From a candidate division WOR-3 bacterium (GTDB lineage Bacteria; Hydrothermota; Hydrothermia; Hydrothermales; JAJRUZ01), in contig JAJRUZ010000008.1 in NCBI GenBank assembly GCA_024277525.1, positions 20,091 through 84,090 of the forward strand: a DNA stretch of 64,000 nt, read 5' to 3'. This document shows, piece after piece, positions 27,998 to 53,554 of this stretch. The position numbers were made by a program, and so were the translations under genes. Position 1 is the stretch's first letter; each line of letters begins with the position of its first letter. The notes below the pieces were generated by a model, which was given only the letters and a program-made list of their open reading frames with translations, was not told where the DNA came from and made no database searches.

Positions 27998-28134
27998 GTT
28001 TGACAGCCATTTATTCTAAATACTGAGAGGGTGTTTGAATAAGAGAAGTTGACATAAGATTCTTTAAAATCGAGATAAAAACCTCTATCGGATTTAAAAG
28101 AAGCAGGATGGGCAAAAAGACAGCAGGGTTATTA

Positions 28135-28250
28135 TGTTTATTGAGTTTACCAGTGTCCTTGTGTTAATCGTGTTTATTGGGTTTGTCGGGTTTATTGTGT
28201 TCTTCGCGTTTGTTGGGATTAATTGCGTTCATTGAGTTTAAAAATTTATT
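28135..28250 (+). repeat. Tandem array of degenerate 9-bp units (TTTATTGGG, TTTGTCGGG, TTTATTGTG, TTCTTCGCG, TTTGTTGGG, ...), about 12 units.
   Basis: Direct reading shows a strict 9-nt period with G at unit positions 7 and 9. Confidence 0.8.
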
Positions 28251-28261
28251 TTACGCGATGA

Positions 28262-28548
28262 ATCATCGCTACAAATCAGATAGGAGGGAAAATAAATCTT
28301 TGATGATATAAACTCCAGATAATCAGAGAATCTATCATTCATTTTTATCCTGTCAAGGAAACTCTTTAAAACATACATTCCCTTTTTCAATCTTATAACC
28401 TTTCCACTTTTCTCCAGCCTTGATAAAGCAATTTTAAGATAATAATTTCTTATCCCAGTATCTCCAGATTTTTCTTTGAAAAATAGGGCAAATCTTTAAC
28501 ACAATCAATTATTTCATCCACAATACTTTTAAAATCTTCATTTCTCAT
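28262..28548 (-). pseudogene. Decayed AbiEi-like (type IV TA antitoxin, wHTH) gene remnant with multiple frame breaks.
   Basis: Hand translation gives MRNEDFKSIVDEIIDCVKDLPYFSKKNLEILG, a stop, IRNYYLKIALSRLEKSGKVIRLKKGMYVL, and further breaks. This resembles the AbiEi N-terminal domain (...L..LG.s...lsrL.kkGkl.rl.rGvY..). No intact ORF exists. Confidence 0.35.
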
Positions 28549-28600
28549 GGTATACAAATATTGTATACTATTGGAAATCAATTTTCAAGTTTCCTTTTAA

Positions 28601-28632
28601 TTGGGTTTTTTGCGTTCATTGTGCTTGTTGGG
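28601..28632 (+). repeat. Short copy of the 9-bp repeat family (TTTTTTGCG TTCATTGTG CTTGTTGGG).
   Basis: Direct reading. Confidence 0.6.
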
Positions 28633-28648
28633 TAGAAACTCCCCTTTC
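28630..28648. other. Hairpin CCCCTTT-cttta-AAAGGGG, followed by GGGGCAGGGGA.
   Basis: Perfect 7-bp stem. Confidence 0.5.
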
Positions 28649-28753
28649 TTTAAAAGGGGGCAGGGGATGTTTAAATTCTCTTGAACTAAAGTCATTTTTT
28701 ATTACACTCTAAGGGTGTAATTAGAGTTAGGGGTCTTCAGAAATTACAACAGT

Positions 28754-28963
28754 TTATTTACTTGTGGTGGGTATAATTATATTAAGTTCTCCTGTGGGAA
28801 TGAGATTATGTAAAGAAGCATTTAAAAACTCTATACTTACTGGCTCACCTTTTTCATTATAACTAACAATTACACCTCCAGGTTCTTCAATAGCATCTAC
28901 GGGTGGATCATCTTTAAATACAATCATTAAAACATCTGACTCGGGATCATACTTTATTTTCAT
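28754..28963 (-). CDS. DUF2283-family protein (predicted antitoxin partner of DUF4258).
   Basis: MKIKYDPESDVLMIVFKDD...GVIVSYNEKGEPVSIEFLNAS matches the DUF2283 pattern (MKI.YD.e.D.lyI...). Confidence 0.7.
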   Translation of the reverse strand: MKIKYDPESDVLMIVFKDDPPVDAIEEPGGVIVSYNEKGEPVSIEFLNASLHNLIPTGELNIIIPTTSK

Positions 28964-28964
28964 A

Positions 28965-29222
28965 TCATTCCTCCTTAAAGTATTTTTTAATTTTGGTAGT
29001 ATAATAAAAAGTTATTATTTTTTTCTCATTTCCTGAAGATGTGAATATTACCCTTAATAGCCCTTTAGTCCACTTTTTCTGAGCTATTACAGTATTCATA
29101 TCACCTGCCACTACTTGAGCAGGATTTTTAAGCACATTTTCTACAATTTCTTTTGTAATTCCCATTTTTTTCTCCCATTCTTTTTGGCGTTCTTTCGCAT
29201 GTTTGGCCCATATAATTTTCAC
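28965..29222 (-). CDS. DUF4258-family protein (predicted toxin of the DUF4258/DUF2283 pair).
   Basis: 85 aa, MKIIWAKHAKERQKEW...; separated from the DUF2283 gene by 1 nt. Confidence 0.6.
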   Translation of the reverse strand: MKIIWAKHAKERQKEWEKKMGITKEIVENVLKNPAQVVAGDMNTVIAQKKWTKGLLRVIFTSSGNEKKIITFYYTTKIKKYFKEE

Positions 29223-29291
29223 TCAAAATATTATATTCCTTCAAGTCAAATTTTTCAAATATATTCAAATTGCAATTTTTATACTTCTGAG

Positions 29292-29450
29292 GTGTTTATC
29301 GCGTTTTTTTGCGTTTGTCGCGTTTGTTGGGTTTATAAATATGCGGGACGAGCGGGACGGGCGGGAAAAGCGAGAGGGGTTTGTTGCGCTTTTCGGGCTT
29401 ATCGTGTTCATTGGGTTTTTCGTGTTTATTGGGTTTTTTGCGTTGATTAT
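29292..29450 (+). repeat. Composite repeat element. A left arm of 9-mers (TTTATCGCG, TTTTTTTGCG, TTTGTCGCG, TTTGTTGGG) is followed by a TTTATAAATAT core. Then come four GCGRGANNN units (GCGGGACGA, GCGGGACGG, GCGGGAAAA, GCGAGAGGG), a right arm of 7 units (GTTTGTTGCG...TTTTTTGCG) and a TTGATTAT terminus.
   Basis: Direct reading. The layout is the same as the copies at 29587, 47062 and 49372. Confidence 0.85.
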
Positions 29451-29586
29451 ATTCTGTTTAAGCTCCATTTACAGTTTATCTTCCTTTAAATAATAAAAGC
29501 TGGCATAGAGCTCTTAAAAAGATTTTGAAATCTAAATAAAGGCTTCTGTTTTTAACATAATAAAGGTCATATTCCTGTCTATATAT

Positions 29587-29664
29587 GTCTATTGCGTTTA
29601 TAAATAGGCGAGAAAAGCGAGAAAGGCGGGAAACGCGAGACGCGTCTATTGCGTTTTTCATTTG
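29587..29664 (+). repeat. Compact copy of the same element: GTCTATTGCG, TTTATAAATAG, GCGAGAAAA, GCGAGAAAG, GCGGGAAAC, GCGAGACGC, GTCTATTGCG.
   Basis: Direct reading; it abuts the 3' end of the wecA-like gene. Confidence 0.85.
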
Positions 29665-37843: not shown

Positions 37844-37853
37844 AAGGTTTAAA

Positions 37854-43075: not shown

Positions 43076-43077
43076 TT

Positions 43078-44316
43078 TTATCTCTTACAGTACCATTTTT
43101 TTACAAACTCCTTATATTCCCTATCACTCTCCCTCACCTTCCTCCACCACCATTCATTCTCCACATACCATTTAACCGTCCTCTCAATTCTATCCTCCAA
43201 CCCCCAACCCCTAACCCCTAATTCCGAATCCCCAACCCCTAACCCCAATTCCCTAATTTTACTATCATCAATACTATATCTCCTATCATGCCCCGGTCTA
43301 TCTTTTACAAATTTTATCAAAGATTCGGGTTTTCCTAAAATTTTTAAAATCATTTTTACAATTTCTATATTTTCTCTTTCATTTCTTCCTGAAATATTAT
43401 AAACTTCACCTATTTCTCCTTTTTCTATAACTAAATCAACTCCTCTGGCACAGTCTTCAACATATAACCAATCTCTTTTTTGTCTGCCGTCTCCGTATAC
43501 GGGTAATGGTTTATTATTTAAGGCATTTATGGTCATCAAAGGAATTAATTTTTCGGGATATTGATAGGGACCAAAATTGTTGGATGGTCTGATGATTATG
43601 ACAGGAACTTTATAAGTATTGTAATATGCAGAACACAACCTGTCTGCTGCTGCTTTACTTGCTGAATACGGATTTTTAGGATTTATAGGGTCTGTTTCTT
43701 TAAAACTTACACCTTCAGGAGCAGGTCCGTAAACTTCATCGGTTGAAATATGGATGAATTTCCACACATTTTTATTTTTTCTTAAAGATTCAAGAAGAAC
43801 ATAAATTCCGTATACATCGGTTTTTATAAATGCATCAGCCTTTATTATTGACCTGTCAACATGAGTTTCAGCAGCATAATGAACAATTACATCTGATAAA
43901 CTGAAAAGAATATCCGTAACCTCTCGGTCCATAATATTTCCTATTACAAAAATTAACCTTTCTTCCTGAAGTAAATCCTGAACAACATCTTTTAAATCGG
44001 ATAATTTAACAAAATTTACTTTATAACCTTCTGTTTTTAATTTTATTCTTTCAAAATCTTCATTTAAGTTTTCTATTTTTACTTTTGTCTCTTTATCCTC
44101 AAAAATTCTTTTAACATTTAAAATAGTTTCCTGTTCGAGGGGAAATATTATGTTATCTTCATTTAAATAATCTTTTAAATTATCCAGATTTCCGGCATAG
44201 GTTAAAATATCAAGAACTATTATTTTATCGTTTGAATTTTTTAATTTATACCTTACAAATTCGCTACCCATAAAACCGGCACCACCGGTGACTAACAGGG
44301 TATAAGATGTGTTCAT
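43078..44316 (-). CDS. rfbB: dTDP-glucose 4,6-dehydratase with a ~60-aa insertion and a repeat-derived C-terminal insert.
   Basis: TGGAGFMGS Rossmann motif, catalytic YxxxK (YSASKAA), and the C-terminal WY..N.WW motif. Confidence 0.85.
   Translation of the reverse strand: MNTSYTLLVTGGAGFMGSEFVRYKLKNSNDKIIVLDILTYAGNLDNLKDYLNEDNIIFPLEQETILNVKRIFEDKETKVKIENLNEDFERIKLKTEGYKVNFVKLSDLKDVVQDLLQEERLIFVIGNIMDREVTDILFSLSDVIVHYAAETHVDRSIIKADAFIKTDVYGIYVLLESLRKNKNVWKFIHISTDEVYGPAPEGVSFKETDPINPKNPYSASKAAADRLCSAYYNTYKVPVIIIRPSNNFGPYQYPEKLIPLMTINALNNKPLPVYGDGRQKRDWLYVEDCARGVDLVIEKGEIGEVYNISGRNERENIEIVKMILKILGKPESLIKFVKDRPGHDRRYSIDDSKIRELGLGVGDSELGVRGWGLEDRIERTVKWYVENEWWWRKVRESDREYKEFVKKWYCKR
43186..43262. 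repeat. G-rich (sense strand) in-frame tandem duplication GAATT(G/A)GGGTTAGGGGTTGGGG inside rfbB; G-quadruplex-prone.
   Basis: Direct reading; it encodes ELGLGVGDS-ELGVRGWGL in place of the usual ELGW. Confidence 0.7.
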
Positions 44317-44318
44317 TT

Positions 44319-45383
44319 CTAAAGTTCTATTTCTGAATAATCACCGATTGAAACCCTGTAAGCTCTGTGAGAATTTTCTTTTCTGTGTAATTTTGCATAT
44401 TTACCTATCAAACTGTCTTCAAGCCTATCAATTTTTGTTATTTCAGCAGAATCAAGAACCACAGAGTTCTGAATTACAGAATCTATAATTTTAACATTAT
44501 TCCCTATGCTTGTATAGGGTCCTATGAAGGAGTTTTCAATTATTGTATTTTCTCCGATTATCACCGGACCTTTAATTGTAGAGTTTTTGATAACGGCGGT
44601 TTCTTCAATTTTCACTCTTCCTGAGATTTTAGTTTCTCCGTCTATTTTACCTTTTATATCTTTTTTTAAAAATTCATCAAGAACTATTGTATTTGCTTCA
44701 AGTAAATCATCTTTTTTTCCTGTATCAAGCCACCAGCCTTTTAGAACATGAGGAAGTACATTTCCTCCGTTGTCTAACAGACCCTGAATAGCATCTGTAA
44801 TTTCATATTCCCCTCGCCATGATGGTTTAAGGGATTCTATTATTTCATGGATTTGAGGAGTAAAGATATAAACACCTACAAGAGCAAGGTTTGAAGGTGG
44901 TCTTTTAGGTTTTTCAATTAATTTTTTAACTTTTCCGTTCGAGTTCACAACAGCAACTCCAAAAGAAGAAGGATTTGAAACTTCTTTTAACAAAATTAAG
45001 GCATCAGGATTTTCAGCTTCAAAAGTTTTTACAAAAGAACAAATGGATTCTCCTATAAGATTGTCTCCCAGATACATTATAAAAGAATCGTTTCCTAGAT
45101 AGTCTCTCGCAACTTTAACCGCATGGGCAAGTCCAAGGGGTTCATCCTGTAATATAAAAGTAAAATTATGATTCCATGGATTTTTAGAAAGTGAATCTTT
45201 TATTAAATCACCTGTCTCAGGTGCAATGATTACTCCCACATCTTTAATTCCTGCATCTTTTAATTGGTCCATAACATAGTGAAGTATTGGCTTATTTGCA
45301 ACAGGAACAAGTTGTTTGGGTATTGTATGAGTAATAGGACGCAGGCGCGTCCCTTTACCCCCAGCCAAGACAAGCGCTTTCAT
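44319..45383 (-). CDS. rfbA: Glucose-1-phosphate thymidylyltransferase (long form with a C-terminal left-handed beta-helix).
   Basis: MKALVLAGGKGTRLRPITHTIPKQL. Confidence 0.85.
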   Translation of the reverse strand: MKALVLAGGKGTRLRPITHTIPKQLVPVANKPILHYVMDQLKDAGIKDVGVIIAPETGDLIKDSLSKNPWNHNFTFILQDEPLGLAHAVKVARDYLGNDSFIMYLGDNLIGESICSFVKTFEAENPDALILLKEVSNPSSFGVAVVNSNGKVKKLIEKPKRPPSNLALVGVYIFTPQIHEIIESLKPSWRGEYEITDAIQGLLDNGGNVLPHVLKGWWLDTGKKDDLLEANTIVLDEFLKKDIKGKIDGETKISGRVKIEETAVIKNSTIKGPVIIGENTIIENSFIGPYTSIGNNVKIIDSVIQNSVVLDSAEITKIDRLEDSLIGKYAKLHRKENSHRAYRVSIGDYSEIEL

Positions 45384-45564
45384 TTTGTTTTCTCCTTAAA
45401 TAAAATACTACATCAAATATATTTATATTTTTATCCTAACACTTCCTTTCTCCTCTCCAAAAACTCCTCCCTATCATACAATATCCTAAATCCTGCTCCC
45501 TTAAGCCATAATGTATATTTTAAATTCTCAAGGGTTTTCTCTATTACATAAATATTATTTTTTC

Positions 45565-45747
45565 TTGATTTTATTTTAAAATTCTTCTTCTTTTTGTCAC
45601 TATTACAAGATAAAGTTCACCGTTTCTGGTGTCATTATATTTTTATAAATGTTCCGAAGGCTGCAAGGGAAATGAGATTTTTTCCATAGGTTGAAACAAC
45701 CTTCTTTTTTATTTGATTGAGTATGTTAGTTTTTTTCTTGGTTTTTA
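45565..45747 (-). pseudogene. Frameshifted paralog of the MNT-like mini-protein encoded at 49497..49793.
   Basis: Hand translation gives MKNLKTKKKTNILNQIKKKVVSTYGKNLISLAAFGTFIKI, a stop, then NDTRNGELYLVIVTKRRR in another frame. Compare IKKKIVSIYGDDLVSLVAFGPSIRTNFEEKEVYLVIVTK in the intact copy. Confidence 0.4.
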
Positions 45748-45998
45748 AGTTTTTCATGGGTTTTAATTAATTTGTTTTGATCTTATTATTAAATATAAAA
45801 TTTCCCATTTCGCATTCCGAATTCCGAATTTTCCTTTTCACCATTTTATCAATCCCCCTTTATCCCCCTTTTCTAAGCTGAGATCACCCATGATTTTTCC
45901 TAATAAATCACTGTATTACTTGTATAAAATTAAAAATGAAGTTATAATTCAGTCTTTAAAAAGATATTGTTAAATTGTCACATAAATGCGACCGCTAC

Positions 45999-46057
45999 AA
46001 TAATCAATCTTTTCTCGCTTTTCTTGCCCGTCGCGCCTTACCACACATCTCGCGGTG
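45999..46057 (-). repeat. Repeat-element copy in reverse orientation: GCGAGATGT..GCGCGACGG GCAAGAAAA GCGAGAAAA GATTGATTATTG.
   Basis: The reverse complement of 45999-46057 matches the GCGAGA-array plus GATTGATTAT terminus of the family. It lies immediately 3' of the HEPN gene. Confidence 0.7.
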
Positions 46058-46489
46058 TTATCCAATCTCCAAAATCTCCTTCACTTTTACAGAGAATTTT
46101 TCGGCGGACTTGAGCAGTTCTTCTGCTCCTGTTTCTGACCATTCATCATAATAATCTGCATTTTCCCTTAAAGTTTTTGCACGCTGAAAACTCTCCACCA
46201 AGTTTAAGTCCAGCTTACCTTTTTCCACATATAAAGCCCTTAATGCCACCATTAAACAATAATGGCTTTTTTCTCTATAATTCTCAGCATAAATAAGTGC
46301 TCTTGCAAAATGAAACATGGCATAATAAGCCTGAATTGTTGCCCATTTGAATTTTTTTCTTTTAAAAGAATCCTTCGCATCTTCAAGGTCTTTTAATCCT
46401 ATGTTGTATTCTTTTTCCACAAGATATTTTCCTCTTGAAAATTCTCTTAATTTTCTTTTCTTTAAACATTTTTCAAATTCAGGATTCAT
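46058..46489 (-). CDS. HEPN-domain protein (toxin of the HEPN/MNT pair).
   Basis: 143-aa all-helical protein overlapping the 3' end of the nucleotidyltransferase gene by 11 nt. Confidence 0.6.
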   Translation of the reverse strand: MNPEFEKCLKKRKLREFSRGKYLVEKEYNIGLKDLEDAKDSFKRKKFKWATIQAYYAMFHFARALIYAENYREKSHYCLMVALRALYVEKGKLDLNLVESFQRAKTLRENADYYDEWSETGAEELLKSAEKFSVKVKEILEIG

Positions 46490-47033
46490 GAGAGTTCCAC
46501 AGGGTGATACCGTTTTCTATTTCCCTGTAAAAAACAGGGTCTTTTTTCTTTATTTCCATAAATCCAATCTCGGTAACTAATATGGGCTTGATTTTTTTAC
46601 TTGAATTTATAGTTTTTTTAATTTTCGGAATCACATCCTTATTTCTTGCAATTATCACAAGGTCAATATCACTGTCTTTCCAGTTTTCTCCTCTGGATGC
46701 ACTTCCGAAAAGCGTTATTCTTATGGAATATTTTTTTATTTTTTGAACCAGGGGAAGAATATTAATTATGTTCTTTAAAACTTTTATCTGCTTAATTATA
46801 ATGTGATTGTAACTCAATGAGTATAAAAAAATACCTCCTTTTTTTCTCCTGGTGATTAACCCGTATTTACACAATTTTCTGAGAGCATAATTAATCGCTG
46901 ATTTTGAGAGTTTGATTTTTTTTCTTATTTCCTTTTCCGTAAATTCTGTTTCCGGATAATCTATAACATACTCAAGGACTCTTTGAACCGAAGTGGCAAA
47001 TACTATATTCTTCATTTCCAAAAAATTGGACAT
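46479..47033 (-). CDS. Minimal nucleotidyltransferase (MNT) with an N-terminal wHTH; antitoxin partner of the HEPN protein.
   Basis: Pol-beta NTase motif LFGSASRGENWKDSDIDLVII. Confidence 0.75.
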   Translation of the reverse strand: MSNFLEMKNIVFATSVQRVLEYVIDYPETEFTEKEIRKKIKLSKSAINYALRKLCKYGLITRRKKGGIFLYSLSYNHIIIKQIKVLKNIINILPLVQKIKKYSIRITLFGSASRGENWKDSDIDLVIIARNKDVIPKIKKTINSSKKIKPILVTEIGFMEIKKKDPVFYREIENGITLWNSHES

Positions 47034-47061
47034 CTATCCATTATAATGGAAAGTCATAAAA

Positions 47062-47180
47062 ATAATCAATGATTGAGTTTATAAATATGCGAGGCGGGCG
47101 AGACGAGTTTATTGGGTTTATCGGGTTTATAGAGTTTATTGGGTTTGTTGCGTTAATTGCGTTTGCTGTGTTCATTGAGA
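47062..47180 (+). repeat. Repeat element: AATCAATGATTGAG, TTTATAAATAT, GCGAGGCGG, GCGAGACGA, then 9-mers GTTTATTGG, GTTTATCGG, GTTTATAGA, GTTTATTGG, GTTTGTTGCG, TTAATTGCG, TTTGCTGTG, TTCATTGAG.
   Basis: Direct reading. Its AATCAA end (reverse complement TTGATT) together with the palindrome CCATTATAATGG (47038-47049) forms a -35/-10-like pair for the MNT-HEPN operon on the minus strand. Confidence 0.8.
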
Positions 47181-47221
47181 ACATATACGATGGGTTGTAT
47201 GAATGCATTTTGTTTCTTTAA

Positions 47222-47426
47222 ATATATTTATTGAATTCTTCAGGTGATATCTGTGCCTGTTTTAAAATGCCTCTTAAAGTTCCTGTTTTTAATTCTTTAT
47301 GAAGTGGAACAACACAACCCCTTTTCTCATTACCACATGACTGCCTCTTTGTCTTACTTTTTTAAATCCCATTCTCTGTAAAATTTTTATTACTTCTTCT
47401 CCTGAAAGTTCCCTAAGTTTTGACAT
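47222..47426 (-). pseudogene. hicA: hicA-like toxin gene with a frameshift in an A/G homopolymer region.
   Basis: Hand translation gives MSKLRELSGEEVIKILQRMGFKKVRQRGSHVVMRKG, then out-of-frame VVPLHKELKTGTLRGILKQAQISPEEFNKYI. Both halves match HicA, but no intact ORF of 60 aa or more is present. Confidence 0.45.
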
Positions 47427-47625
47427 CTATTTCAAAGGTGGTAATAAGGGGACGTCCTACTTCAGGATGTCCGAATTCTTCCAGATAAAGTTCTGTTGCT
47501 TCTTTTAAATTATTGATTGTTTCCTCTATGGTATAACCCTGACTCACTGTTCCAACTTCCGGACACTCGGCAACCCACATGTCTTCTTCTTTATAAACTA
47601 CTGCTGTAAATGTTTTTGTTTTCAT
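47413..47625 (-). CDS. hicB: HicB-family antitoxin (UPF0150).
   Basis: 70 aa, MKTKTFTAVVYKEEDMWVAECPEVGTVSQGYTIEETINNLKEATELYLEE. Confidence 0.65.
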   Translation of the reverse strand: MKTKTFTAVVYKEEDMWVAECPEVGTVSQGYTIEETINNLKEATELYLEEFGHPEVGRPLITTFEIDVKT

Positions 47626-47652
47626 AATTTTTATATTACACTCCCTTTAATT

Positions 47653-47669
47653 GTGAATGCAATATTCAC
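47653..47669. promoter_or_regulatory. Palindrome GTGAAT-gcaat-ATTCAC about 28 nt upstream of hicB; candidate operator.
   Basis: Perfect 6-bp inverted repeat read directly. Confidence 0.35.
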
Positions 47670-47757
47670 GCTTTACCACACATCTCACAATTTTATCAAT
47701 CAACGCAATAATCCCGACAAACACAACAAACGCGATAAACACGACTCGCATTTTTAA
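47660..47757 (-). repeat. Repeat-element copy in reverse orientation. The reverse complement reads TTGATTAAAAATGCGAGTCGTGTTTATCGCGTTTGTTGTGTTTGTCGGGATTATTGCGTTGATTGA.
   Basis: Direct reading; it shares TTACCACACATCTC with the copy at 46036. Confidence 0.7.
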
Positions 47758-47773
47758 TCAATCCCCCTTAATC

Positions 47774-47801
47774 CCCCTTCGCCAAAGGGGAGAATTTTTT
47801 T
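47774..47801 (+). terminator. Hairpin CCCCTT-cgcca-AAGGGG followed by AGAATTTTTTT (intrinsic-terminator-like, plus strand). It is part of a 34-nt exact duplicate of 49318-49351.
   Basis: Stem, loop and T-tract read directly. Confidence 0.45.
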
Positions 47802-47846
47802 ATTTCCTTTTTCACCGTAAACCCATCCACTCACCGTTTTGCTTTC

Positions 47847-47890
47847 CTCCTTTCTCGCCTTTCTCGCATTACCACCCGTCTCGCATTTTA
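47847..47890 (-). repeat. GCGAGA-array module in reverse orientation (reverse complement: AAAATGCGAGACGGGTGGTAATGCGAGAAAGGCGAGAAAGG); it supplies the last codons (MRDGW, stop) of the DUF4143 ORF.
   Basis: Direct reading. Confidence 0.7.
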
Positions 47891-49153
47891 ACCCATTTCC
47901 AGAAAGGTAATACTCTGCAGGTTATACCTTCTTTTTTTTCTTCATATTCCTGATCACGGGTTATTATTATTCCTGATTTTAGGTTTAAAAATTTACAGGC
48001 TTTTATAAGCCCTTCTATCTCCCTTTTTTTATTTTCTGAATTTATCTCCCATGTGACCTGGATTGCCTGCAATTTGCCATTATTTTTAACCACAAAATCG
48101 CATTCGCCATCTTTATTAAAATAGTATATCTCATATCCTTTTCTTTTCAGTTCAAGAAAAACCACATTTTCCAGCAACCTGCCGTAATCTTCGGATTTGA
48201 CTCTTTTTGCAAGACCTGTATCAACAAGATAAATTTTTGGGTGGATTCCTCATTCTTTTATAGGAAGATTCGGAAAAAATCCTGCTTTCGTATACGAGCA
48301 TGCTTTCAAGAAAATATCTGTAGTAGGAAAAAAGGGAATCTTTTGAAAAAGGGAATTTACCTTTATATTTTTTATAGAAAGAAATAAGGGAAAATCGGGA
48401 TGAAAAGGAGGAGAAAAGGTTCTCCTGCAGGGTTTTCAGCAGGGTTATATTTGTTATATTGAATCTTTCCACAAGGTCTTTGAAGAACATTGCATCAAGA
48501 TATTGGCTTAAAATCTTTTTTCTCATGAATTTTTCTTCAATAAAAGAGACCTCAGGGAAACCACCCCATTCAAGATACTCATTAATATAAGCTTTTAAAA
48601 TTGACTTTTTTCTCCCATAAATCTCTTTTGTTTCAAATTTTTTTGCTCTTAGAAATTCGGTGAAGGAAAAGGGGTAAACCTCATATGTCCATGCCCTTCC
48701 CCTTAAAGAAGCATGTATTCTGGAAGGAGTTATCTCCGAAGAGGAACCTGCAACATAAACATCTATGTTCTCCCTTTCAACCAGTCTCCTGACAAATTTT
48801 TCCCATCCCTTTATATTCTGTATTTCATCAAATAGAAAAATTACTTTTTTTTCTTTAACAAGGCGGGAATTGAGTTCAAAGAAAATATCCTTGATTTTTT
48901 CAAGGTCATCCAGGGTTATTCCCTCAAGTCTTTCATCTTCAAAATCTATATAAAGGGCTTTTTCAGGATTTTTTTTAAATACACTGTAAAGCACAAATGT
49001 TTTGCCACTCCTTCTGACTCCATAAATGACTTTAACTTTTTTGAGTTTTTGAGGGAAAACAATACCTTCCCTCTCTATTATATTTTTTATTTCATTATTT
49101 ATAAATTCTCTGCCCGTAAGTATTATTTCTTTTATTGTATCAGAACTGACCAT
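47869..49153 (-). pseudogene. COG1373-type AAA ATPase (AAA_14 plus DUF4143) split by a frameshift into 48221..49153 and 47869..48177.
   Basis: The N-terminal ORF has a Walker A (GVRRSGKT) and Walker B (VIFLFDEIQ). The C-terminal ORF is a DUF4143-like domain. The two are in different frames. Confidence 0.6.
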
Positions 49154-49217
49154 TTTATTTTGTCCTTTTCAGAAGTATATTTTAAAGAATTTTTGTCCTT
49201 TTTTCAAGGAAAATTTT

Positions 49218-49462
49218 GGTTTATAAAAAGGCGAGACTGGCGAGAAAAGTTATTTTCATATCTTTTATTTTTTCCTTTCTTGCGTTTCTCGCATTACAAC
49301 CCGTCTCGCAGTTTATTCAATCCCCCTTAATCCCCCTTCGCCAAAGGGGAATTTGTGCGATAAATCGCACCGCAACATAATCAATCTTTTCTCGCTTTTC
49401 GCGCACGTCTCGCCTTTCTCGCATACTTGTAACACGATAAACACGATAAATACGTTAACATG
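49218..49462. repeat. Cluster of repeat modules in mixed orientation. Forward GGTTTATAAAAAG, GCGAGACTG, GCGAGAAAAG (49218-49249). Reverse GCGAGA module (49276-49312). Hairpin duplicate (49318-49351). Palindrome GTGCGAT-aa-ATCGCAC (49354-49369). Reverse full element (49372-49462).
   Basis: Direct reading. The reverse complement of 49372-49462 reads ...TTTATCGTG TTTATCGTG TTACAAGTAT GCGAGAAAG GCGAGACGT GCGCGAAAA GCGAGAAAA GATTGATTATGTT. Confidence 0.8.
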
Positions 49463-49496
49463 TTTCACGGTTTTTGCTCTCACACTCTTCCGGTTT

Positions 49497-49793
49497 TCAC
49501 CATTTTTTTATTATGTCCTCAAAAAATTTGTCCTTGTCATAAAGAATTTTTAACTCCGCACCTTTGAGCCACAAATTTTTTATTTTAATGGATTCCGGCT
49601 CTTTATGGATGGTAAATATTTTATAAGGAGAAAAATTCAACTCCGCCTTTTTTTCACTGTTCTTTGTCACAATAACTAAGTAAACTTCTTTTTCTTCAAA
49701 ATTTGTCCTTATGGAAGGACCGAATGCAACAAGAGATACTAAGTCATCTCCGTATATAGAGACAATCTTCTTTTTTATTTTATCCAGCACCAA
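49497..49793 (-). CDS. Small MNT-like protein with a degenerate, probably inactive nucleotidyltransferase motif.
   Basis: LVSLVAFGPSIRTNFEEKEVYLVIV aligns to the hGSxxRG...DhDhhV NTase motif but lacks the catalytic residues. A decayed paralog lies at 45565-45747. Confidence 0.4.
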   Translation of the reverse strand: MVLDKIKKKIVSIYGDDLVSLVAFGPSIRTNFEEKEVYLVIVTKNSEKKAELNFSPYKIFTIHKEPESIKIKNLWLKGAELKILYDKDKFFEDIIKKW

Positions 49794-49860
49794 ACCCTTA
49801 TTACCTTTTTTTTCTTATAAAAACCGACATTTTTCATCAATTTACCTCCGATTTAATATT

Positions 49861-52338
49861 TCATTCTTTTCCATAATATTTTGAATAATATTTGTAATAA
49901 TAGTAATAATAATGGCTCCCCCTTTTCTTAGGAACCGCATTTATAACAACTCCTATGATATCGGATTTTGAAGACAATAAAATATCCCTTGCTTCCTCCA
50001 CTTCTTTAAAGTTTGTTTTTCCGTATCTTATTGTGAGAATTACACCATCCGCATAATTTGCAATATAAGCAGAATCCGCAAATAAAAGAACAGGAGTCCC
50101 GTCAATTATTACATAATCATATTCCTCTTTTAAATCCTTAATTAATTTTTTCATTTTTTCTGATTCAAGGAAAATTAAAGGATTTGCAGGAATTTTCCCA
50201 ACAGGTATCACATCTATTTTTATATCAAGCTTATCATTATGATGAGAAACATCCGTTATTGCATTTTCAATTTTTTCCTCCCCTGTTAATATGTCAAAAA
50301 GACCGGCTTCCTTTTTTATTTCAAAAATATCGGTTATATGTCCTTTTTTCTTTCTGAAATCACTGTCAATAACAATTACTTTATTTCCTTTTGAGGCATA
50401 AACAAATCCGAGATTTAACGCTACAAAGGTTTTTCCTTCTTCAGGACTCGGTGAAGTGACATAAATTACTTTGTATTTTTTATCAGGATGTGCAAATTCA
50501 AGATTTATTGAAAGCTTTCTGAAAGCCTCAAACTCCGCTGAAGAAAGGTCAGGTTCGATTATTTTTAATTCGGAACTCAAACTGTTCTTTTTAAAAATTT
50601 TACTAAAAAATCCATTCCGGTTATTTTCAATTAAAGGTATTGAGGTGTAAACAGGAAGCCCTGTTTTTAATTTTAAGATTTCAGGGTCTTTAACTGTATT
50701 ATCAATATATTCTACAATAAAAACCGTAAATCCACCTATCAATATGCTGATTATAAAAGAAAGAATAAGAATCAAAAGGGGCTTTCTTGCATTCACAGGT
50801 CTGTATGAAACAAGGGGAGGGTTTATAATTTTTAAGTCCGAAGTAACACCTGCCTCCTGTACCCTTGTCTCTTCAAGCTTCTAGGCAAAAAAGGTGTATA
50901 ATTTTTCCGTTGTCTCTCTATCCCTTTCAAGTCTTGCAAGCTGTAACTCATCCTCGGGAACATTTTCCAATTTAAGCTTTAAAGCGCTTATTTGACTTTT
51001 AACACTCTGGATTTCTGTTTTTATTGTTGATATTCTTTTTGTTATTTCTTCTTTCATCTGTTCTCTTAAGCCTTCAAGTTTTGCCTTTACCTCATAAACT
51101 TTCGGATGATTAGGAGAATAGGATTTTAATCTGCCTTTAAGTTCTGCCTCTGTTTGTAATAATTGAGAGTAAAAATTCTGAAGAACCGGATCCGAAAGAA
51201 GCGCAGGAGCAAAGTTAACGGTTGTGTCAAGTTCCTTTCCCTTTGCAAGATACTCTCCCAAATTTTTTAAAATACTCTGCTCAATCTCGAGTTGACTTTT
51301 TTTTGTTTCAAGACTCGAAATTTGGGAAATTAATGCCTGAGTAGAAGCTTTTAAATCCGCTATTTTTTTCTGCTCTTTAAAAGTCTTTATTTTTTCTTCC
51401 AGTTCAGAAAGTTTATTTTTATAAAATTCGAGTTGGGACTCGATGAATTTTCTGGACTGAATGTATTGAAGGGATTTTTCTTTTATATCTTCTTTGATTA
51501 TTAAGTCGGAAAGCACCTTTGCTATCTCATAAGCATCCTGAGGATTTCCCCAGAAAACATCTATTCTTAAAATCCCGAGAAGATTAACCCCCGGAAAGAT
51601 TGTTTTTGCAGTTACAAGCTTTTTTGAGGCTCCTTCTCCTGAAAAAGGAACACCTCCGAGTGCAGGCTCTTTTTCTATTTTATCAGCCTCCAAAACCTTT
51701 ATTGAGAGAGAATTTCTCAAAGCAAGGGCTATTCTGTCTCTGGGATAAAATGTTATGGTATAAGTTCTCTCTTTAAACTCTTTCTTTAAAGGAATTACCT
51801 TGAACTTCAAAAAGCCGATATCAAGAGATTCACCAATTTTGCCATCCAGAACCTTCTTACCATCACTTGTAAAAAGCTCCACACTATTATTTGATATTTT
51901 TAATTTAAAAGGACCGACGGGGTTCTCAAAATCCCTTATAATTTTTGTTTTTATCTTTATATCAGGCAATCCATCTTTTATATGGGTATAAAGTGAAAGG
52001 GAATCCGCAATTTTTTGAGCAAGCCTGACACTCAGGAGGTTTGATATAACTCTTTGTGTCACAGAACCGATTTGAAGGGTGGGAGTCTCCTGAACCGGTG
52101 AAAAAACACCTTCAATGGGTTTTTCATTTGAAACCCCTATGTCAAAGGTTGCCTTATAAATGGGAGTATAAGGTTTTAGAAATTGATAGAGGAGTATTAT
52201 AAAAAATGTAACCACTGCGGTTGTAATAAAAAGCCCCAGCCTTCTCAGGAATATGTTTATTATATCGTTTAAACTCAAAGTTTCTTCTTCATATGAATTT
52301 TGAAAATAAATATGATTTTTGATTTTACCTTCTTTCAT
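49861..52338 (-). pseudogene. wzc: Wzc/GumC-type polysaccharide co-polymerase fused to a BY-kinase. It has a single in-frame TAG (50881-50883) between the periplasmic/coiled-coil domain (50881..52338) and the TM2 plus kinase part (49861..50796).
   Basis: The same reading frame holds across the stop. The 28 codons between the ORFs encode the conserved pre-TM2 motif (DLKIINPPLVSYRPV). The kinase has Walker A (SPSPEEGKT) and a C-terminal Tyr cluster, YYYYYYKYYSKYY. Confidence 0.6.
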
Positions 52339-52339
52339 T

Positions 52340-52969
52340 TTATTTAAGTCTCTGAAGTGTTATGTAAAAATTTAAGACCGAGGCTGTTAAGGCAAGGGCA
52401 TTCAGCACAAGCCCCCAATTAATGGTGAACTTCTCCGGTACGTACACTACATCACCGGGCTTTAATTCTATGTTTTTGACAAAATCTCCTTTTTTAAGTA
52501 TCTCTTCAACATTCACCTCAAATGAGACCGGGTTTTCTTTTCTGAATATAACAACTTTTACCTTTTTAAGGTTAGCCTTCTGTGTGGGTCCACCTGCAAG
52601 TGCAATGTAATCGGTGAGCTTCAATCCCCTCTGGTACTCCACAGCACCGGGTCTTAAAACCGCTCCGAATACCGAAACATAAGGCAAAGAAGGACTTTTT
52701 AATATTACGGAAACAAGGGGATGAGTGAAATATTTTGAGAGCTTTTCCGAAATAAGCCTTGATGCTTCCTCGGTTGTTAAACCAACAACCTTTACTTCAC
52801 CTATAAGGGGAAAGGATATTGTTCCGTTTCTCATCACCATTACGGTCCTTGATAGATTTTCCTCACCTACAACAAGAATTTCAAGAACATCCCCTGTTTC
52901 AATTTTATATGTTGAAGATTGCGAAAACAAAGGAAAAAATATAAATAAAAATATCAAATTTTTTTTCAT
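52340..52969 (-). CDS. wza: Polysaccharide export protein (Wza-like: Poly_export plus SLBB).
   Basis: Signal peptide plus YKIETGDVLEILVVGEE...; a second beta-grasp-like domain (KPGDVVYVPE). Confidence 0.7.
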   Translation of the reverse strand: MKKNLIFLFIFFPLFSQSSTYKIETGDVLEILVVGEENLSRTVMVMRNGTISFPLIGEVKVVGLTTEEASRLISEKLSKYFTHPLVSVILKSPSLPYVSVFGAVLRPGAVEYQRGLKLTDYIALAGGPTQKANLKKVKVVIFRKENPVSFEVNVEEILKKGDFVKNIELKPGDVVYVPEKFTINWGLVLNALALTASVLNFYITLQRLK

Positions 52970-53065
52970 TTCTATAAAATTATAAGATTAAATGTATGTT
53001 ATTTAAAAAATTGTAAAAAAATACAAAAAGTGTAAATTTTTTTTGACATTTTAATTTGCACAGGC

Positions 53066-53099
53066 TCCGCCCCTCCTCCCTTTTACGGAGGCTTTTTAT
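53066..53099 (+). terminator. Hairpin (CTCCG...CGGAG, or CCTCC-cttttac-GGAGG) plus a T-tract in the long AT-rich intergenic region.
   Basis: Read directly. A second, related two-stem hairpin lies at 53221-53254 (TAGAC...CCCCT-ttttc-AGGGG-GTCTA). Confidence 0.3.
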
Positions 53100-53554
53100 A
53101 TTTGCACATATCAAAAAGTTATGCAAATTGTATTCCAATAAAATTAACACATCATTTAAATTTTACACCTTTATTTCTATGTCTAACAACTTATCAAAAT
53201 AATTTATTTTAAAAATTTGATAGACTCCGTCCTTCCCCTTTTTCAGGGGTCTATATTTGAAATTTAAAAAATTTTGCAAATTACAGTTTAACAATTATAT
53301 TTTTAATTAAAAATTATAATACTATTTTAAATCATATTACCTTATGGATGCAAAAATTTTAAACCTTATGAAATTTTATGACTCTTTAAAAAATGAAAAA
53401 TACGAGAAATTGCAAGCTGTCGAAAATTTTCCTCACTCTCAATGAGAATCGGTAAAAACGAAATTCCATGTTACAACAAAATTTCTCTCCTTCCTCAAAG
53501 GAGAATCACAATTTTTAAACAGCTCTGCCCTCAGTGTGTCCGCATATTAATTTT

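What the first reader, a model, noticed from the sequence alone, without database searches (positions are those of the whole stretch)
45999..49462. Repeat-element family I do not recognise (9-bp-periodic arrays with a TTTATAAATAT core, GCGRGANNN x3-4 and a GATTGATTAT terminus) in both orientations between every cassette of a 4.4-kb accessory island
Every intergenic spacer in this island carries one or more copies of the same modular element. The copies are at 45999-46057, 47062-47180, 47660-47757, 47847-47890, 49218-49249, 49276-49312 and 49372-49462, in both orientations.

The modules are as follows:
- arrays of degenerate 9-mers TTTRTYGNG (for example GTTTATTGG, GTTTATCGG, GTTTGTTGCG, TTCATTGAG);
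- an AT core GTTTATAAATAT;
- 2-4 tandem 9-mers GCGAGAAAA, GCGAGAAAG, GCGGGAAAC, GCGAGACGC;
- a conserved end RTTGATTAT.

The period is exactly 9 nt, which is not the helical repeat and is not CRISPR-like. The elements sit next to TA cassettes and sometimes provide the stop codon of a neighbouring ORF (47869).

In one case the element supplies a -35/-10-like pair for the adjacent operon on the minus strand (TTGATT-N18-TATAAT, near 47040-47069). I do not recognise this as a described MITE, REP/BIME, integron attC or iteron family.
Basis: seen in the sequence. Interest (0 to 1): 0.8.

Follow-up and report, generated by a model that had tools for sequence, protein, structure and literature searches.

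The report
Phased 9-mer mosaic repeats between toxin-antitoxin cassettes
The spacers between small toxin-antitoxin gene cassettes in this uncultivated thermophile-like bacterium are built from one family of 9-base units laid down in phased blocks of either orientation, mixed with REP-type hairpins; this mosaic intergenic repeat has relatives in other phyla, and its reader protein, if it has one, is unknown.

Summary
All seven listed copies exist and the motifs are far above chance (15 vs 0.15 and 32 vs 1.05 expected). A second cluster at 28127-29665 was missed.

The four "modules" reduce to one 9-nt unit family. The GTTTATCGC unit is the reverse complement of GCGATAAAC, one base from GCGAGAAAC. 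The "core" and "terminus" are degenerate units. The arrays are mixed with GTAG-type REP hairpins and G/C-hairpin words, as in a BIME mosaic.

The arrays occur only in two islands of mostly decayed TA cassettes, which flank a 15.7-kb polysaccharide operon. Orthologous MNT-HEPN cassettes on other metagenome contigs carry the same array families, with different unit numbers and different neighbours.

In Nitrospirota and other genomes, GCGRGA x4 arrays form convergent pseudo-palindromes next to housekeeping genes. Hexamer, 9-nt phase and polarity are kept. Spacers are not complementary between arms. This favours reading in duplex DNA by a protein over a hairpin or RNA.

I found no Rfam, attC, MITE, plasmid or phage match. 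The closest precedent is the paired tandem 7-9-mer "global regulator sites" of Geobacter metallireducens (2009).

Verdict: a new variant of REP/BIME-like mosaic repeats; mechanism inferred, not shown.

The parts
28127..28245 (+). A-type 9-mer array, about 12 units (GTTTATTGG, GTTTGTCGG ...)
28254..28272 (-). REP-like hairpin GTAG-CGATGA-T-TCATCG, directly abutting the A array
   Evidence: read from the sequence
28596..28632 (+). A-type array, 3-4 units, followed at 28637-28672 by a G/C hairpin word (CTCCCCTTTCTTTAAAAGGGGGCAGGGG)
28754..29222 (-). DUF2283/DUF4258 two-gene cassette bounded by the arrays
29294..29452 (+). Fullest copy: A x4, 'core' GTTTATAAATAT (29331-29342), B x4 (29343-29378), A x7 (29379-29443), terminal unit GTTGATTAT (29444-29452)
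29590..29661 (+). core (GTTTATAAATAG), B x4 (29608-29643), A x2. Overlaps the stop codon of the glycosyltransferase-like ORF 29658-30710
45844..45882 (+). C word (AATCCCCCTT x2), diverged copy; ATTCCGA x2.4 lies just upstream at 45814-45830
45977..45998 (-). REP-like hairpin GTAGCGGTCGCATTTATGTGAC, abutting the terminal unit
45999..46057 (-). On the gene (minus) strand: GCGAGATGT-GTGGTAAG-GCGCGACGG-GCAAGAAAA-GCGAGAAAA-GATTGATTAT. Starts 4-9 nt after the HEPN stop codon
46058..47033 (-). HEPN (46058-46489) / wHTH-MNT (46479-47033; public annotation starts 6 codons further in) cassette
47040..47069 (-). TTGATT-N18-TATAAT promoter-like pair at the array/cassette boundary, conserved in L269 and L270
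47055..47180 (+). Palindromic terminal word ATAATCAATGATTGA, core (47077-47088), B x2 (47089-47106), A x8 (47107-47180)
47219..47625 (-). HicB (47413-47625) / HicA (frameshifted pseudogene, 47219-47426) cassette, lying between B2-A8 and the inverted A'5-B'1
47657..47752 (+). TTCACGCTTTACCACACATCTCAC word, then inverted A units x5 (47697-47745) and one inverted B unit
47753..47791 (+). C word with hairpin CCCCTTCGCCAAAGGGG; 97% identical to 49312-49350
47838..47890 (-). B x3 with the GTGGTAAT word. Contains the stop codon of ORF 47869-48177. 91% identical to 49273-49315
47869..49153 (-). AAA_14 + DUF4143 ATPase cassette, frameshifted near 48220
49216..49312 (+). 'Empty' convergent pseudo-palindrome: core, B x2 (49231-49249), 25-nt centre, inverted B x3 (49273-49312)
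49312..49350 (+). C word with hairpin
49354..49376 (-). REP-like hairpin GTTGCGGTGCGATTTATCGCACA
49377..49462 (-). On the minus strand: A x3, core-like GTTACAAGTAT, B x4, GATTGATTAT. 24 nt identical to 46000-46023
49497..49793 (-). Small ORF with no Pfam hit; it has a decayed paralog at about 45400-45757

Best explanation
These are non-coding, BIME-like mosaic intergenic repeats.

Anatomy:
- They are built from one 9-nt unit family: a conserved hexamer GCG-R/A-G/T-A plus 3 free bases.
- The units are deposited in phased blocks of either orientation.
- They are combined with GTAG-type REP hairpins and G/C-rich hairpin words.

In complete form the blocks make a convergent pseudo-palindrome: GCGRGA-NNN xn, a centre, then NNN-TCYCGC xn. 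This sits immediately 3' of a transcription unit.

Proposed behaviour:
- Unit number changes by slippage or unequal exchange.
- Blocks are reshuffled by recombination between copies.
- Hexamer, 9-nt phase and block polarity are kept across phyla, while spacers drift and the two arms are not complementary. The constraint is therefore most likely recognition of duplex DNA by a still unidentified sequence-specific protein (a nucleoid-type or transposase/recombinase-type reader), not an RNA or hairpin structure.
- In this lineage the arrays form the spacers of small TA-cassette islands on both sides of a polysaccharide operon. They probably act as the portable homology through which cassettes are gained, lost and reordered.

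Shown: the anatomy, the enrichment, the conservation pattern, the association with orthologous cassettes, and the absence from curated families.

Inferred: the protein reader, the slippage, and the role in cassette shuffling.
For: 1. Enrichment and confinement to the two islands.
2. One unit family:
   - The reverse complement of the A unit (GCGATAAAC, GCAACAAAC) differs from the B unit (GCGAGAAAC) at one position.
   - L270 has intermediate units (ACGAGATAA, ACGAGACGA) where the window has A' units.
3. Mosaic, not unitary: shared segments between copies are only 15-44 nt, in varying combinations.
4. REP hairpins with a GTAG/GTTG tag abut the arrays. The related WOR-3 genome L266 has canonical GTAG REPs in alternating clusters.
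5. Same architecture elsewhere:
   - 13 of 120 genome-contig hits have GCGRGA x4 followed within 13-90 nt by inverted arrays, never preceded by them. Nine of the 13 are Nitrospirota.
   - L014 has the A-B divergent arrangement.
   - L022, L111, L112 and L045 are homologous over about 150 nt.
6. Neighbours of those copies are housekeeping genes.
7. Spacer positions 8-9 are nearly uninformative and follow genome GC.
8. Mirror-unit spacers are no more alike than permuted ones: 29% vs 34%, P=0.91.
9. RNA folds of window copies reach z of only about -2.
10. 18- and 27-nt higher-order periods indicate block duplication.
11. Orthologous MNT-HEPN cassettes (89% and 72% aa identity) keep the same array families and polarity. 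Unit number differs (8 units in the window, 15 in L269, at least 5 in L270, whose contig starts inside the array). Downstream composition and neighbouring cassettes also differ, and the contigs end inside arrays.
12. Precedent for paired opposite-strand arrays of 3-5 tandem 7-9-mers: PMC2700814.
Against: - No trans-acting protein was identified. There is no RAYT, transposase or integrase among the 30 window ORFs scanned.
- Genome-wide copy number in the source organism could not be measured. Only 64 kb was available, and its contig is not retrievable.
- Hexamer conservation is partly built into the way units were collected.
- About 100 kb of related WOR-3-like DNA around thiC has no 9-mer arrays. 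Both metagenome scans with window-specific 19-27-mers found no true copy. The AT-rich variant may therefore be narrowly distributed.
- The link between the AT-rich window arrays and the GC-rich Nitrospirota palindromes rests on shared hexamer, phase and polarity, not on alignable homology.
- In this window the arrays are strictly tied to cassette islands, which a generic REP-like model does not by itself predict.
Confidence: 0.5

Rival explanations
1. Recombination sites of an integron-like but attC- and IntI-independent cassette system. The phased arrays are bound by a dedicated recombinase that inserts, excises and reorders TA cassettes at the borders of the polysaccharide locus.
For: - Every cassette in both islands is bounded by arrays, and arrays occur nowhere else in 64 kb.
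- All cassettes are co-oriented, each has a promoter-like pair upstream, and most are decayed, as in sedentary integron arrays.
- Orthologous MNT-HEPN cassettes elsewhere carry the same array families with conserved polarity but different neighbours. HicBA is downstream in L269 and upstream in the window.
- The same wzc-rfbA slot in a relative holds a different small cassette, flanked by other short tandem words in an X-Y-cassette-Y-X' arrangement.
Against: - There is no R''/L''/L'/R' attC architecture.
- No recombinase was found in the 30 ORFs scanned.
- Junctions are not at a fixed point. Array composition differs on orthologous flanks.
- Homologous-looking elements in Nitrospirota lie between housekeeping genes without cassettes.
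Confidence: 0.17
2. Functionless minisatellite-like filler. Short words seeded by chance or by REP insertions expand by replication slippage in dispensable AT-rich spacer DNA of decaying cassette islands. The similarity to arrays in other phyla is convergence or composition.
For: - 18- and 27-nt higher-order periods are present.
- Unit numbers differ at orthologous flanks.
- Several unrelated words of period 7, 9 and 10 coexist.
- Arrays invade ORFs in frame or replace gene interiors: rfbB at 43197-43256, the L126 epimerase start, the L125 VapC-like ORF.
- Promoter-like sites are not above shuffles (the terminator-like count in island 2 is: 10 vs 3.2).
- Folds are weak.
Against: - The same hexamer, the same 9-nt phase and the same convergent polarity (13 of 13, never divergent) recur across genomes of 32-63% GC.
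- Within arrays the differences between neighbouring units fall mainly in the 3-nt spacers.
- Polarity relative to the cassette is conserved in three genomes.
Confidence: 0.2
3. The arrays are expressed products: either a structured non-coding RNA, or small hydrophobic peptides of the type I toxin kind (the A array reads FIGFIGF...; the core+B reads MRDERDGREKRE).
For: - ORFs 47069-47221, 29203-29493 and a 33-codon ATG ORF at 28134-28235 read as a charged N-terminus followed by a hydrophobic helix.
- A period of 9 is a multiple of 3.
- 29305-29452(+) and 49214-49322 fold with z of about -2.
Against: - No Rfam hit, even at E up to 1, apart from one 17.7-bit chance match.
- Most copies fold no better than shuffles.
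- Arms do not covary.
- Start codons are present in only some copies. Arrays occur in both orientations and all contexts.
- The ATG of 'MRDE...' overlaps the TATAAAT that would have to be its promoter.
- GC-rich relatives would encode quite different peptides.
Confidence: 0.05

Closest known systems
Paired tandem-oligonucleotide 'putative global regulator (IHF/HU) binding sites', classes 1-3, of Geobacter metallireducens (Aklujkar et al. 2009, PMC2700814), and the multicopy direct repeats of G. bemidjiensis (PMC2996986)
   Same: - Arrays of 3-5 tandem 7-9-nt units (GTTGCTYN x4; TCTCCGTS[Y] x3; MTYCTGA x5).
- The arrays come in pairs on opposite strands at variable distance.
- They are multicopy and mostly intergenic, with some families inserted in frame inside genes.
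- Their function is unknown.
   Different: - The unit sequences differ.
- No association with TA cassettes was reported there.
- The IHF/HU assignment there is a conjecture.
- I could not align the Geobacter copies, because the supplementary figures for classes 1 and 2 are not held.
REP / BIME / REPIN elements (GTAG-tagged repetitive extragenic palindromes and their mosaics)
   Same: - Non-coding and placed just 3' of genes.
- Copies occur in alternating orientation and are combined with other short motifs into mosaics.
- Three GTAG/GTTG-tagged hairpins abut the arrays here.
- A related genome has canonical GTAG REP clusters.
   Different: - The dominant component here is a phased 9-mer without self-complementarity, not a 20-40-nt hairpin.
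- The pseudo-palindrome arms are not kept complementary.
- No RAYT gene was seen in the window.
Integron attC sites / CALIN cassette arrays
   Same: - Co-oriented small cassettes, many of them TA pairs each with a promoter-like pair upstream.
- The cassettes are separated by related imperfectly symmetric repeats.
- Cassette order differs between genomes.
   Different: - No R''-L''...L'-R' boxes or GTTRRRY crossover site.
- No IntI found.
- Several spacers have no inverted symmetry at all.
- The same repeat kind occurs next to housekeeping genes in other phyla.
Centromere or operator arrays read by RHH/wHTH proteins (the omega heptads of pSM19035, ParG/parH, ParR/parC, TubR/tubC). This comparison is from my own knowledge and was not tested.
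   Same: Contiguous short units (7-12 bp) in direct, convergent or divergent blocks, where only a core of each unit is conserved. Cooperative protein filaments read them in duplex DNA.
   Different: - No partition or replication genes adjacent. The ParA-like ORF 49861-50796 hits AAA_31 and CbiA and lies next to Wzz and polysaccharide-export genes, so I read it as a Wzc-type kinase (inference).
- The location is chromosomal and dispersed.
- The binder is unknown.
Cyanobacterial STRR heptamer arrays and BOX elements of Streptococcus pneumoniae (modular repeats). This comparison is from my own knowledge.
   Same: Short tandem units dispersed in intergenic DNA; modular composition with a variable number of internal units.
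   Different: Different units and periods, different taxa; no sequence relation tested.

Membership tests
REP (GTAG-tagged) | 20-40-nt imperfect palindrome with a GTAG-like tetranucleotide at one end | tested here: met
   Met only for three sub-elements: 28254-28272, 45977-45998 and 49354-49376 (tags GTAG, GTAG, GTTG; stems of 6-8 bp). The 9-mer arrays themselves are not palindromic units.
REP (GTAG-tagged) | High genome-wide copy number and a cognate RAYT (Y1 transposase) gene | not testable with these tools
   Only 64 kb of the genome is available and the source contig is not retrievable. No Y1 transposase among the 30 ORFs scanned.
BIME | Mosaic of REPs in alternating orientation separated by a small set of conserved linker motifs | tested here: inconclusive
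   The mosaic build and alternating blocks are present. However, the three REP-like hairpins are all on the minus strand, and the 'linkers' (9-mer arrays) dominate.
MITE | Copies of uniform length with terminal inverted repeats and target-site duplications | tested here: not met
   Copies share only 15-44-nt segments in different combinations. There are no common ends and no flanking direct duplications. ATAATCAAT occurs in the same orientation at 46000, 47060 and 49377.
Integron attC / CALIN | R''(RYYYAAC)-L''...L'-R'(GTTRRRY) with complementary boxes, 50-150 nt | tested here: not met
   A heuristic scan of both islands on both strands found 0 candidates. This is a heuristic, not the IntegronFinder covariance model.
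Integron attC / CALIN | Integron integrase nearby (not required for CALIN) | tested here: not met
   No tyrosine recombinase among the ORFs scanned. The remaining window ORFs sit in long housekeeping or polysaccharide operons and were not scanned.
CRISPR | Direct repeats of 24-48 nt separated by unique spacers of similar length | tested here: not met
   Units are 9 nt and contiguous.
Any Rfam RNA family | Covariance-model score at or above gathering, or E up to 1 | tested here: not met
   0 hits at gathering over 64 kb. 0 hits in 45300-49900. One hit at 17.7 bits against a gathering score of 100 in 27900-29800, which I take as chance.
Geobacter-type paired tandem-oligonucleotide sites (PMC2700814) | 3-5 tandem 7-9-nt units, paired on opposite strands at variable distance, multicopy, intergenic | tested here: met
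   The architecture is met in the window (49216-49312; 47089-47180 with 47697-47752) and in 13 other genomes. The unit sequence differs from the published consensuses.
Type I toxin small ORF | Conserved small hydrophobic ORF with a start codon and RBS, and an overlapping antisense RNA | tested here: not met
   A start codon is present in only some copies, and orientation and frame are not conserved (and my reading of the sequence).
Partition or iteron arrays | Tandem units adjacent to cognate par/rep genes on a replicon | tested here: not met
   The context is chromosomal (ribosomal proteins, ClpX). No match in plasmid or phage collections.

The most novel reading that the evidence does not exclude
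A widely distributed but undescribed DNA-binding or recombination protein reads GCGRGA hexamers at a fixed 9-bp phase in convergent blocks. It is present in Nitrospirota, WOR-3-like bacteria, Desulfobacterota and others.

In the WOR-3-like lineage this system has been co-opted as an attC-independent gene-cassette platform. It captures and reorders toxin-antitoxin modules at the borders of surface-polysaccharide loci.
Probability: 0.12. Interest if true: 0.8.

Novelty: new variant of a known kind. Interest (0 to 1): 0.5.

Why it matters
If a specific protein reads these arrays, it would define a new protein-DNA recognition mode: hexamers at 9-bp phase, off the helical repeat. That mode would be shared by environmentally important, poorly studied phyla, including nitrite-oxidising Nitrospirota.

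It would also explain a class of 'multicopy sequences' left unexplained since the Geobacter genome papers.

In this lineage the arrays delimit TA cassettes and break assemblies. They therefore bear on how accessory cassettes move without integrons, and on why such islands are missing or fragmented in metagenome-assembled genomes.

If the arrays are only slippage-prone filler, the practical value is smaller. It would be limited to annotation (avoiding spurious ORFs such as 47041-47208, 47069-47221 and 29115-29489) and to strain typing by array length.

Tried and rejected
- **Genome-contig scan with four GCGRGANNN units.** Most of the 120 rows were GC-rich coding tandem repeats.
- **Metagenome scan with core+B.** No hits.
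- **Metagenome scan with GCGAGAAAAGATTGATTAT.** Seven hits, all coding 'REKIDY' chance matches.
- **Viral scans.** Generic or chance hits only. The five hits are all the same apparently protein-coding stretch of related viral contigs.
- **Plasmid and phage blastn.** No match.
- **Exact look-ups of window ThiC and RfbA.** Not on record, so the source contig could not be extended.
- **Strain comparison of the AC-335 relatives.** All copies are identical, so there is no polymorphism information.
- **thiC neighbourhoods of relatives.** Not syntenic, so there is no empty-site comparison for island 1.
- **Distant MNT homolog loci.** No arrays.
- **Geobacter supplementary alignments for classes 1 and 2.** Not held.
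- **Literature searches for nonamer repeats, the hexamer strings, and Nitrospira REPs.** No description of this family found.
- **Promoter idea for the TATAAAT core.** Rejected: there is no suitably placed -35, and counts are not above shuffles.
- **31909 B-like doublet.** Rejected as coding chance.
- **DnaA-box, IHF-consensus and restriction-site (CGTCTC) resemblances.** Considered from memory. They fit only some units, and I dropped them.

Full report
**1. What is there**

The region is AT-rich (window 32% GC). It carries small co-oriented minus-strand cassettes:
- HEPN/MNT, 46058-47033;
- HicB plus a frameshifted HicA, 47219-47625;
- an AAA_14/DUF4143 ATPase frameshifted near 48220, 47869-49153;
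- a small ORF with no Pfam hit at 49497-49793, with a decayed paralog at about 45400-45757.

The island splits a polysaccharide locus. On one side are the export, Wzz and kinase-like genes (49861-52969). On the other are rfbA, rfbB and, on my reading (these ORFs were not scanned), the glycosyltransferase and flippase genes (29658-45383).

A second island lies at the other end of that operon (27998-29657). It holds a DUF2283/DUF4258 pair and a frameshifted pseudogene that I read as AbiEi-like without a family scan.

The second island holds at least four more.

**2. More than chance**

- Two phased GCGRGA hexamers occur 15 times against 0.15 expected.
- Two phased GTTYRTYG units occur 32 times against 1.05 expected.
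- The AATCCCCCTT doublet occurs 3 times against 0.07 expected.
- All true matches lie in the two islands. The hit at 31909 is normal coding sequence.
- No other intergenic region of the window has them.
- The AT 'core' alone is not significant.
- TRF reports period 9, with 18- and 27-nt higher-order periods.

**3. Anatomy: one unit family, two orientations**

Call the GTTTRTYGN units 'A' and the GCGRGANNN units 'B'; a prime (A', B') marks the reverse-complement orientation.

Reading the A unit on the other strand gives GCGATAAAC, GCAACAAAC and CCAATAAAC. These are one position away from the B unit GCGAGAAAC.

The 'core' GTTTATAAA(TAT) and the 'terminus' GTTGATTAT are degenerate A-like units at block boundaries.

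The copies then become simple block diagrams (+ strand unless stated):
- 29294-29452: A4, core, B4, A7, end unit.
- 29590-29661: core, B4, A2.
- 47055-47180: end unit, core, B2, A8.
- 49462->49372 (minus strand): A3, core, B4, end unit.
- 49216-49312: core, B2, 25 nt, inverted B3.

The HicBA cassette lies between B2-A8 and the inverted A5-B1.

An orthologous flank in another genome (L270) has ACGAGATAA and ACGAGACGA units exactly where the window has A-type units. These are intermediates, which supports the single-family view.

Copies share only 15-44-nt segments in varying combinations. This is therefore a mosaic, not a unitary element with fixed ends.

**4. Companions**

Three hairpins with a GTAG or GTTG tag abut arrays: 28254-28272, 45977-45998 and 49354-49376. 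They have the form of GTAG-tagged REPs.

A related genome (L266, GCA_039803845.1) has canonical copies: GTAGCCGCACCCTTCAGGGTGCG and GTAGGCGCAGGCTTTAGCCTGCG. They occur in alternating clusters.

A G/C-rich word with a hairpin occurs three times (AATCCCCCTTAATCCCCCTTCGCCAAAGGGG). It resembles the hairpins flanking a DUF559 gene in the close relative L126. It also resembles a 7-mer insert kept in frame inside rfbB (43197-43256). L126 has a similar insert at the same place.

**5. Who carries it**

- RfbA is 100% identical to a protein on an NCBI contig of 93,929 nt that could not be fetched.
- The nearest retrievable DNA (L126-L128) is 83-88% identical in the rfb genes. It has A-type arrays at 669-715 and 1826-1880 on either side of an epimerase gene. 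One of them supplies that gene's start codon.
- ThiC places the organism near 'candidate division WOR-3 / Hydrothermales'. RfbA's nearest named relative is labelled Aminicenantes.

**6. Same cassette, other genomes**

MNT homologs at 89% (L269) and 72% (L270, L271) identity sit on 1.1-1.7-kb contigs that end inside arrays.

Upstream, on the sense strand, all have A'-type arrays: 8 units in the window, 15 in L269, and at least 5 in L270. The arrays end at a conserved TTGAYT-N18-TATAAT.

Downstream, 4-15 nt after the HEPN stop, L269 carries GCGAGA-N4-GTGGTAAK-GCGMGA like the window; L270 and L271 have the same word with a degenerate first hexamer (GAGATGTGTGGTAATGCGAGA). After that the flanks diverge:
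- window: three B units, the end unit and a REP;
- L269: B2, a centre, inverted B2, core, A'8, and then a different HicBA cassette;
- L270: G/C hairpin words.

So the family and its polarity travel with the cassette. Unit number, composition and neighbours do not.

A 37%-identical MNT cassette in a 43% GC genome has no arrays.

In a relative at 80% RfbA identity, the same wzc-rfbA slot holds a different two-gene cassette. It is flanked by other tandem words and a 72-nt direct repeat.

In L125 an ORF that reads like VapC (not family-scanned) has its middle replaced by a CTTACGC-type 7-mer array.

**7. Other phyla**

Even so, 13 of 120 loci have the array followed 13-90 nt later by an inverted array, and never the reverse order. 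Nine of these are Nitrospirota. Further loci have looser versions: Syntrophorhabdus, Syntrophobacterales, other Deltaproteobacteria MAGs, and L014 at 43% GC with an A6-B4 block like the window's.

Their neighbours are housekeeping genes, judged by my reading of the ORF translations rather than a family scan: secDF, dnaK/dnaJ, hypAB, nuoI-K and pilus genes.

L022, L111, L112 and L045 are visibly homologous over about 150 nt, including outer GTGAAGC-type 7-mers.

Spacer positions 8-9 carry almost no information. Position 7 shifts from A in the window to C in GC-rich genomes.

Mirror-image units of the two arms share 86% of hexamer positions but only 29% of spacer positions, against 34% on permutation (P=0.91). 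The arms are therefore not maintained as a base-paired stem.

**8. What it is not**

- **Rfam:** nothing at gathering over 64 kb, and nothing meaningful at E up to 1 in either island.
- **RNA folds of window copies:** z of -2.4 at best, and most near 0.
- **attC:** no R''/L''/L'/R' candidates.
- **MITE:** no uniform copies, terminal inverted repeats or target duplications.
- **Plasmids, phages, viral contigs:** no true match.
- **Mobility genes:** no transposase, integrase or RAYT in 30 ORFs scanned.
- **Promoters:** promoter-like counts are not above shuffles.
- **Peptides:** the small hydrophobic ORFs that the arrays create lack conserved starts, frames or orientation.

**9. Mechanism**

The best-supported reading is a REP/BIME-like mosaic repeat whose main component is a phased 9-mer.

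Shown:
- the composition, enrichment and placement right after stop codons;
- the conserved polarity;
- conservation of hexamer and phase but not of spacers or arm complementarity;
- variable unit numbers at orthologous sites, and higher-order periods.

Inferred:
- Unit number changes by slippage or unequal exchange.
- Blocks are exchanged by recombination between copies.
- The constraint on hexamer, phase and orientation reflects a protein that reads duplex DNA.
- In this lineage the arrays serve as portable homology for gaining, losing and reordering TA cassettes.

A 9-bp phase rotates successive sites by roughly -50 degrees. This is compatible with a protein filament wrapping the DNA, as known for heptad- or iteron-binding RHH proteins. 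That comparison is from my own knowledge and is an analogy only.

Rivals are a dedicated cassette recombination system, neutral minisatellite filler, and expressed RNA or peptide products. They are weighed in the structured fields.

**10. Comparison with the known**

The nearest description is Aklujkar et al. 2009 (PMC2700814). It reports pairs of opposite-strand arrays of 3-5 tandem 7-9-mers in G. metallireducens. These were conjectured to be IHF/HU sites, and IS elements sit at fixed distances from one class. The G. bemidjiensis paper (PMC2996986) reports direct repeats of 6-42 nt, with multicopy sequences of all kinds present in 12% of intergenic regions.

The present family shares that architecture but has its own unit. 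It also shows cross-phylum conservation of the hexamer and phase, and an association with TA cassettes and REP hairpins.

I file it as a new variant of a known kind, not as a member of REP, BIME, MITE, attC or any Rfam family.

**11. Verdict**

- Observation: confirmed.
- Interpretation: partly supported.
- Interest: moderate (0.5). The phenomenon is real and uncurated, and it points to an unknown reader. Against that, it has descriptive precedent, and no mechanism could be demonstrated with the data reachable here.

Noticed in passing
window 43197-43256 (inside rfbB-like ORF 43078-44316, minus strand): An in-frame insert of about 40-60 nt made of GGGGTTR 7-mers around ATTCGGAAT. It encodes LGVGDSELGVRG within the conserved ELGW region. 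A similar 21-nt-period insert is at the same place in relative L126 (5109-5165).
   Followed up: partly
window 47219-47426; 47869-49153; 28250-28552; 45400-45757: Four of the island genes are pseudogenes: HicA is frameshifted; AAA_14/DUF4143 is frameshifted near 48220; a pseudogene that I read as AbiEi-like (not family-scanned) has a stop and a frameshift; and there is a decayed paralog of ORF 49497-49793. The antitoxin-side partners (HicB, MNT) look intact.
   Followed up: partly
L125 7620-7720: An ORF that reads like VapC (MRLLLDTNI...FDSDFDRTERG; not family-scanned) next to a DUF2281 gene has its middle replaced by a CTTACGC/TTCACGC 7-mer array. A longer array of the same words (11 units) separates the next two MNT/HEPN cassettes (8556-8627).
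   Followed up: no
L126 669-715 and 160-260 / 585-650: An AAAACGCAA x5 array supplies the start codon and first residues (MNAKNAK) of an epimerase gene. The adjacent DUF559 gene is flanked by G/C hairpins (CCTCCCCCTTGATGGGGGAGGATTAAGGTGGGGG) that resemble the window's AATCCCCCTT word.
   Followed up: partly
L121 8765-8875 and 9672-9775 (same as L129): In a relative, the slot between the kinase-like gene and rfbA holds a different two-gene cassette. It is flanked by a ~72-nt direct repeat (~85% identical, starting AAGGAGTTAAAAATAA) and by inverted GTAAAGCGT-type words outside it (X-Y-cassette-Y-X').
   Followed up: partly
L266 14540-14790 and 17700-18100: What read as three tRNA genes (not run through the tRNA tool) are followed by canonical GTAG REPs. 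A cluster of five REPs in alternating orientation lies next to an intact AAA_14/DUF4143 gene in a WOR-3 genome. This shows the lineage has a REP system.
   Followed up: partly
window-wide: Taxonomic labels disagree. RfbA's nearest named relative is 'Candidatus Aminicenantes bacterium AC-335-K20'. ThiC's nearest are 'candidate division WOR-3' and 'Candidatus Hydrothermales'. Either the SAG label is off or the rfb region was transferred.
   Followed up: no
window 26675-27997 vs L262, L264, L266: thiC is about 80% identical at the DNA level in relatives, but nothing around it is syntenic. In the relatives it is followed by housekeeping genes (folate cyclo-ligase, THUMP methylase, TrpBP, GidA-family gene), not by the island and polysaccharide operon.
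   Followed up: partly
window 52970-53554: A long intergenic region upstream of the polysaccharide-export gene contains two similar G/C hairpins followed by T runs (ggctccgcccctcctcccttttacggaggcttttt and gactccgtccttcccctttttcaggggtct). They are unrelated to the 9-mer arrays.
   Followed up: no
L099 2626-2800 (Alistipes MAG); L054, ~90-150 nt 3' of the element (strand as printed); L026/L047 (Syntrophorhabdus): Other genomes show long mixed arrays of several short words side by side: GCGAGAGGR x11 followed by GGAGTTTAG-type and GACCTTACTT-type units; CCAGTAGGGGN 11-mers; GCGGGAARG x15 followed by AACACGGAT-type units. This suggests the mosaic-of-tandem-words habit is widespread.
   Followed up: no
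one search hit table: Almost all homologs of the wHTH-MNT protein sit on contigs of 1-3 kb. This is consistent with assemblies breaking in the flanking arrays, so such islands are probably under-represented in MAGs.
   Followed up: no
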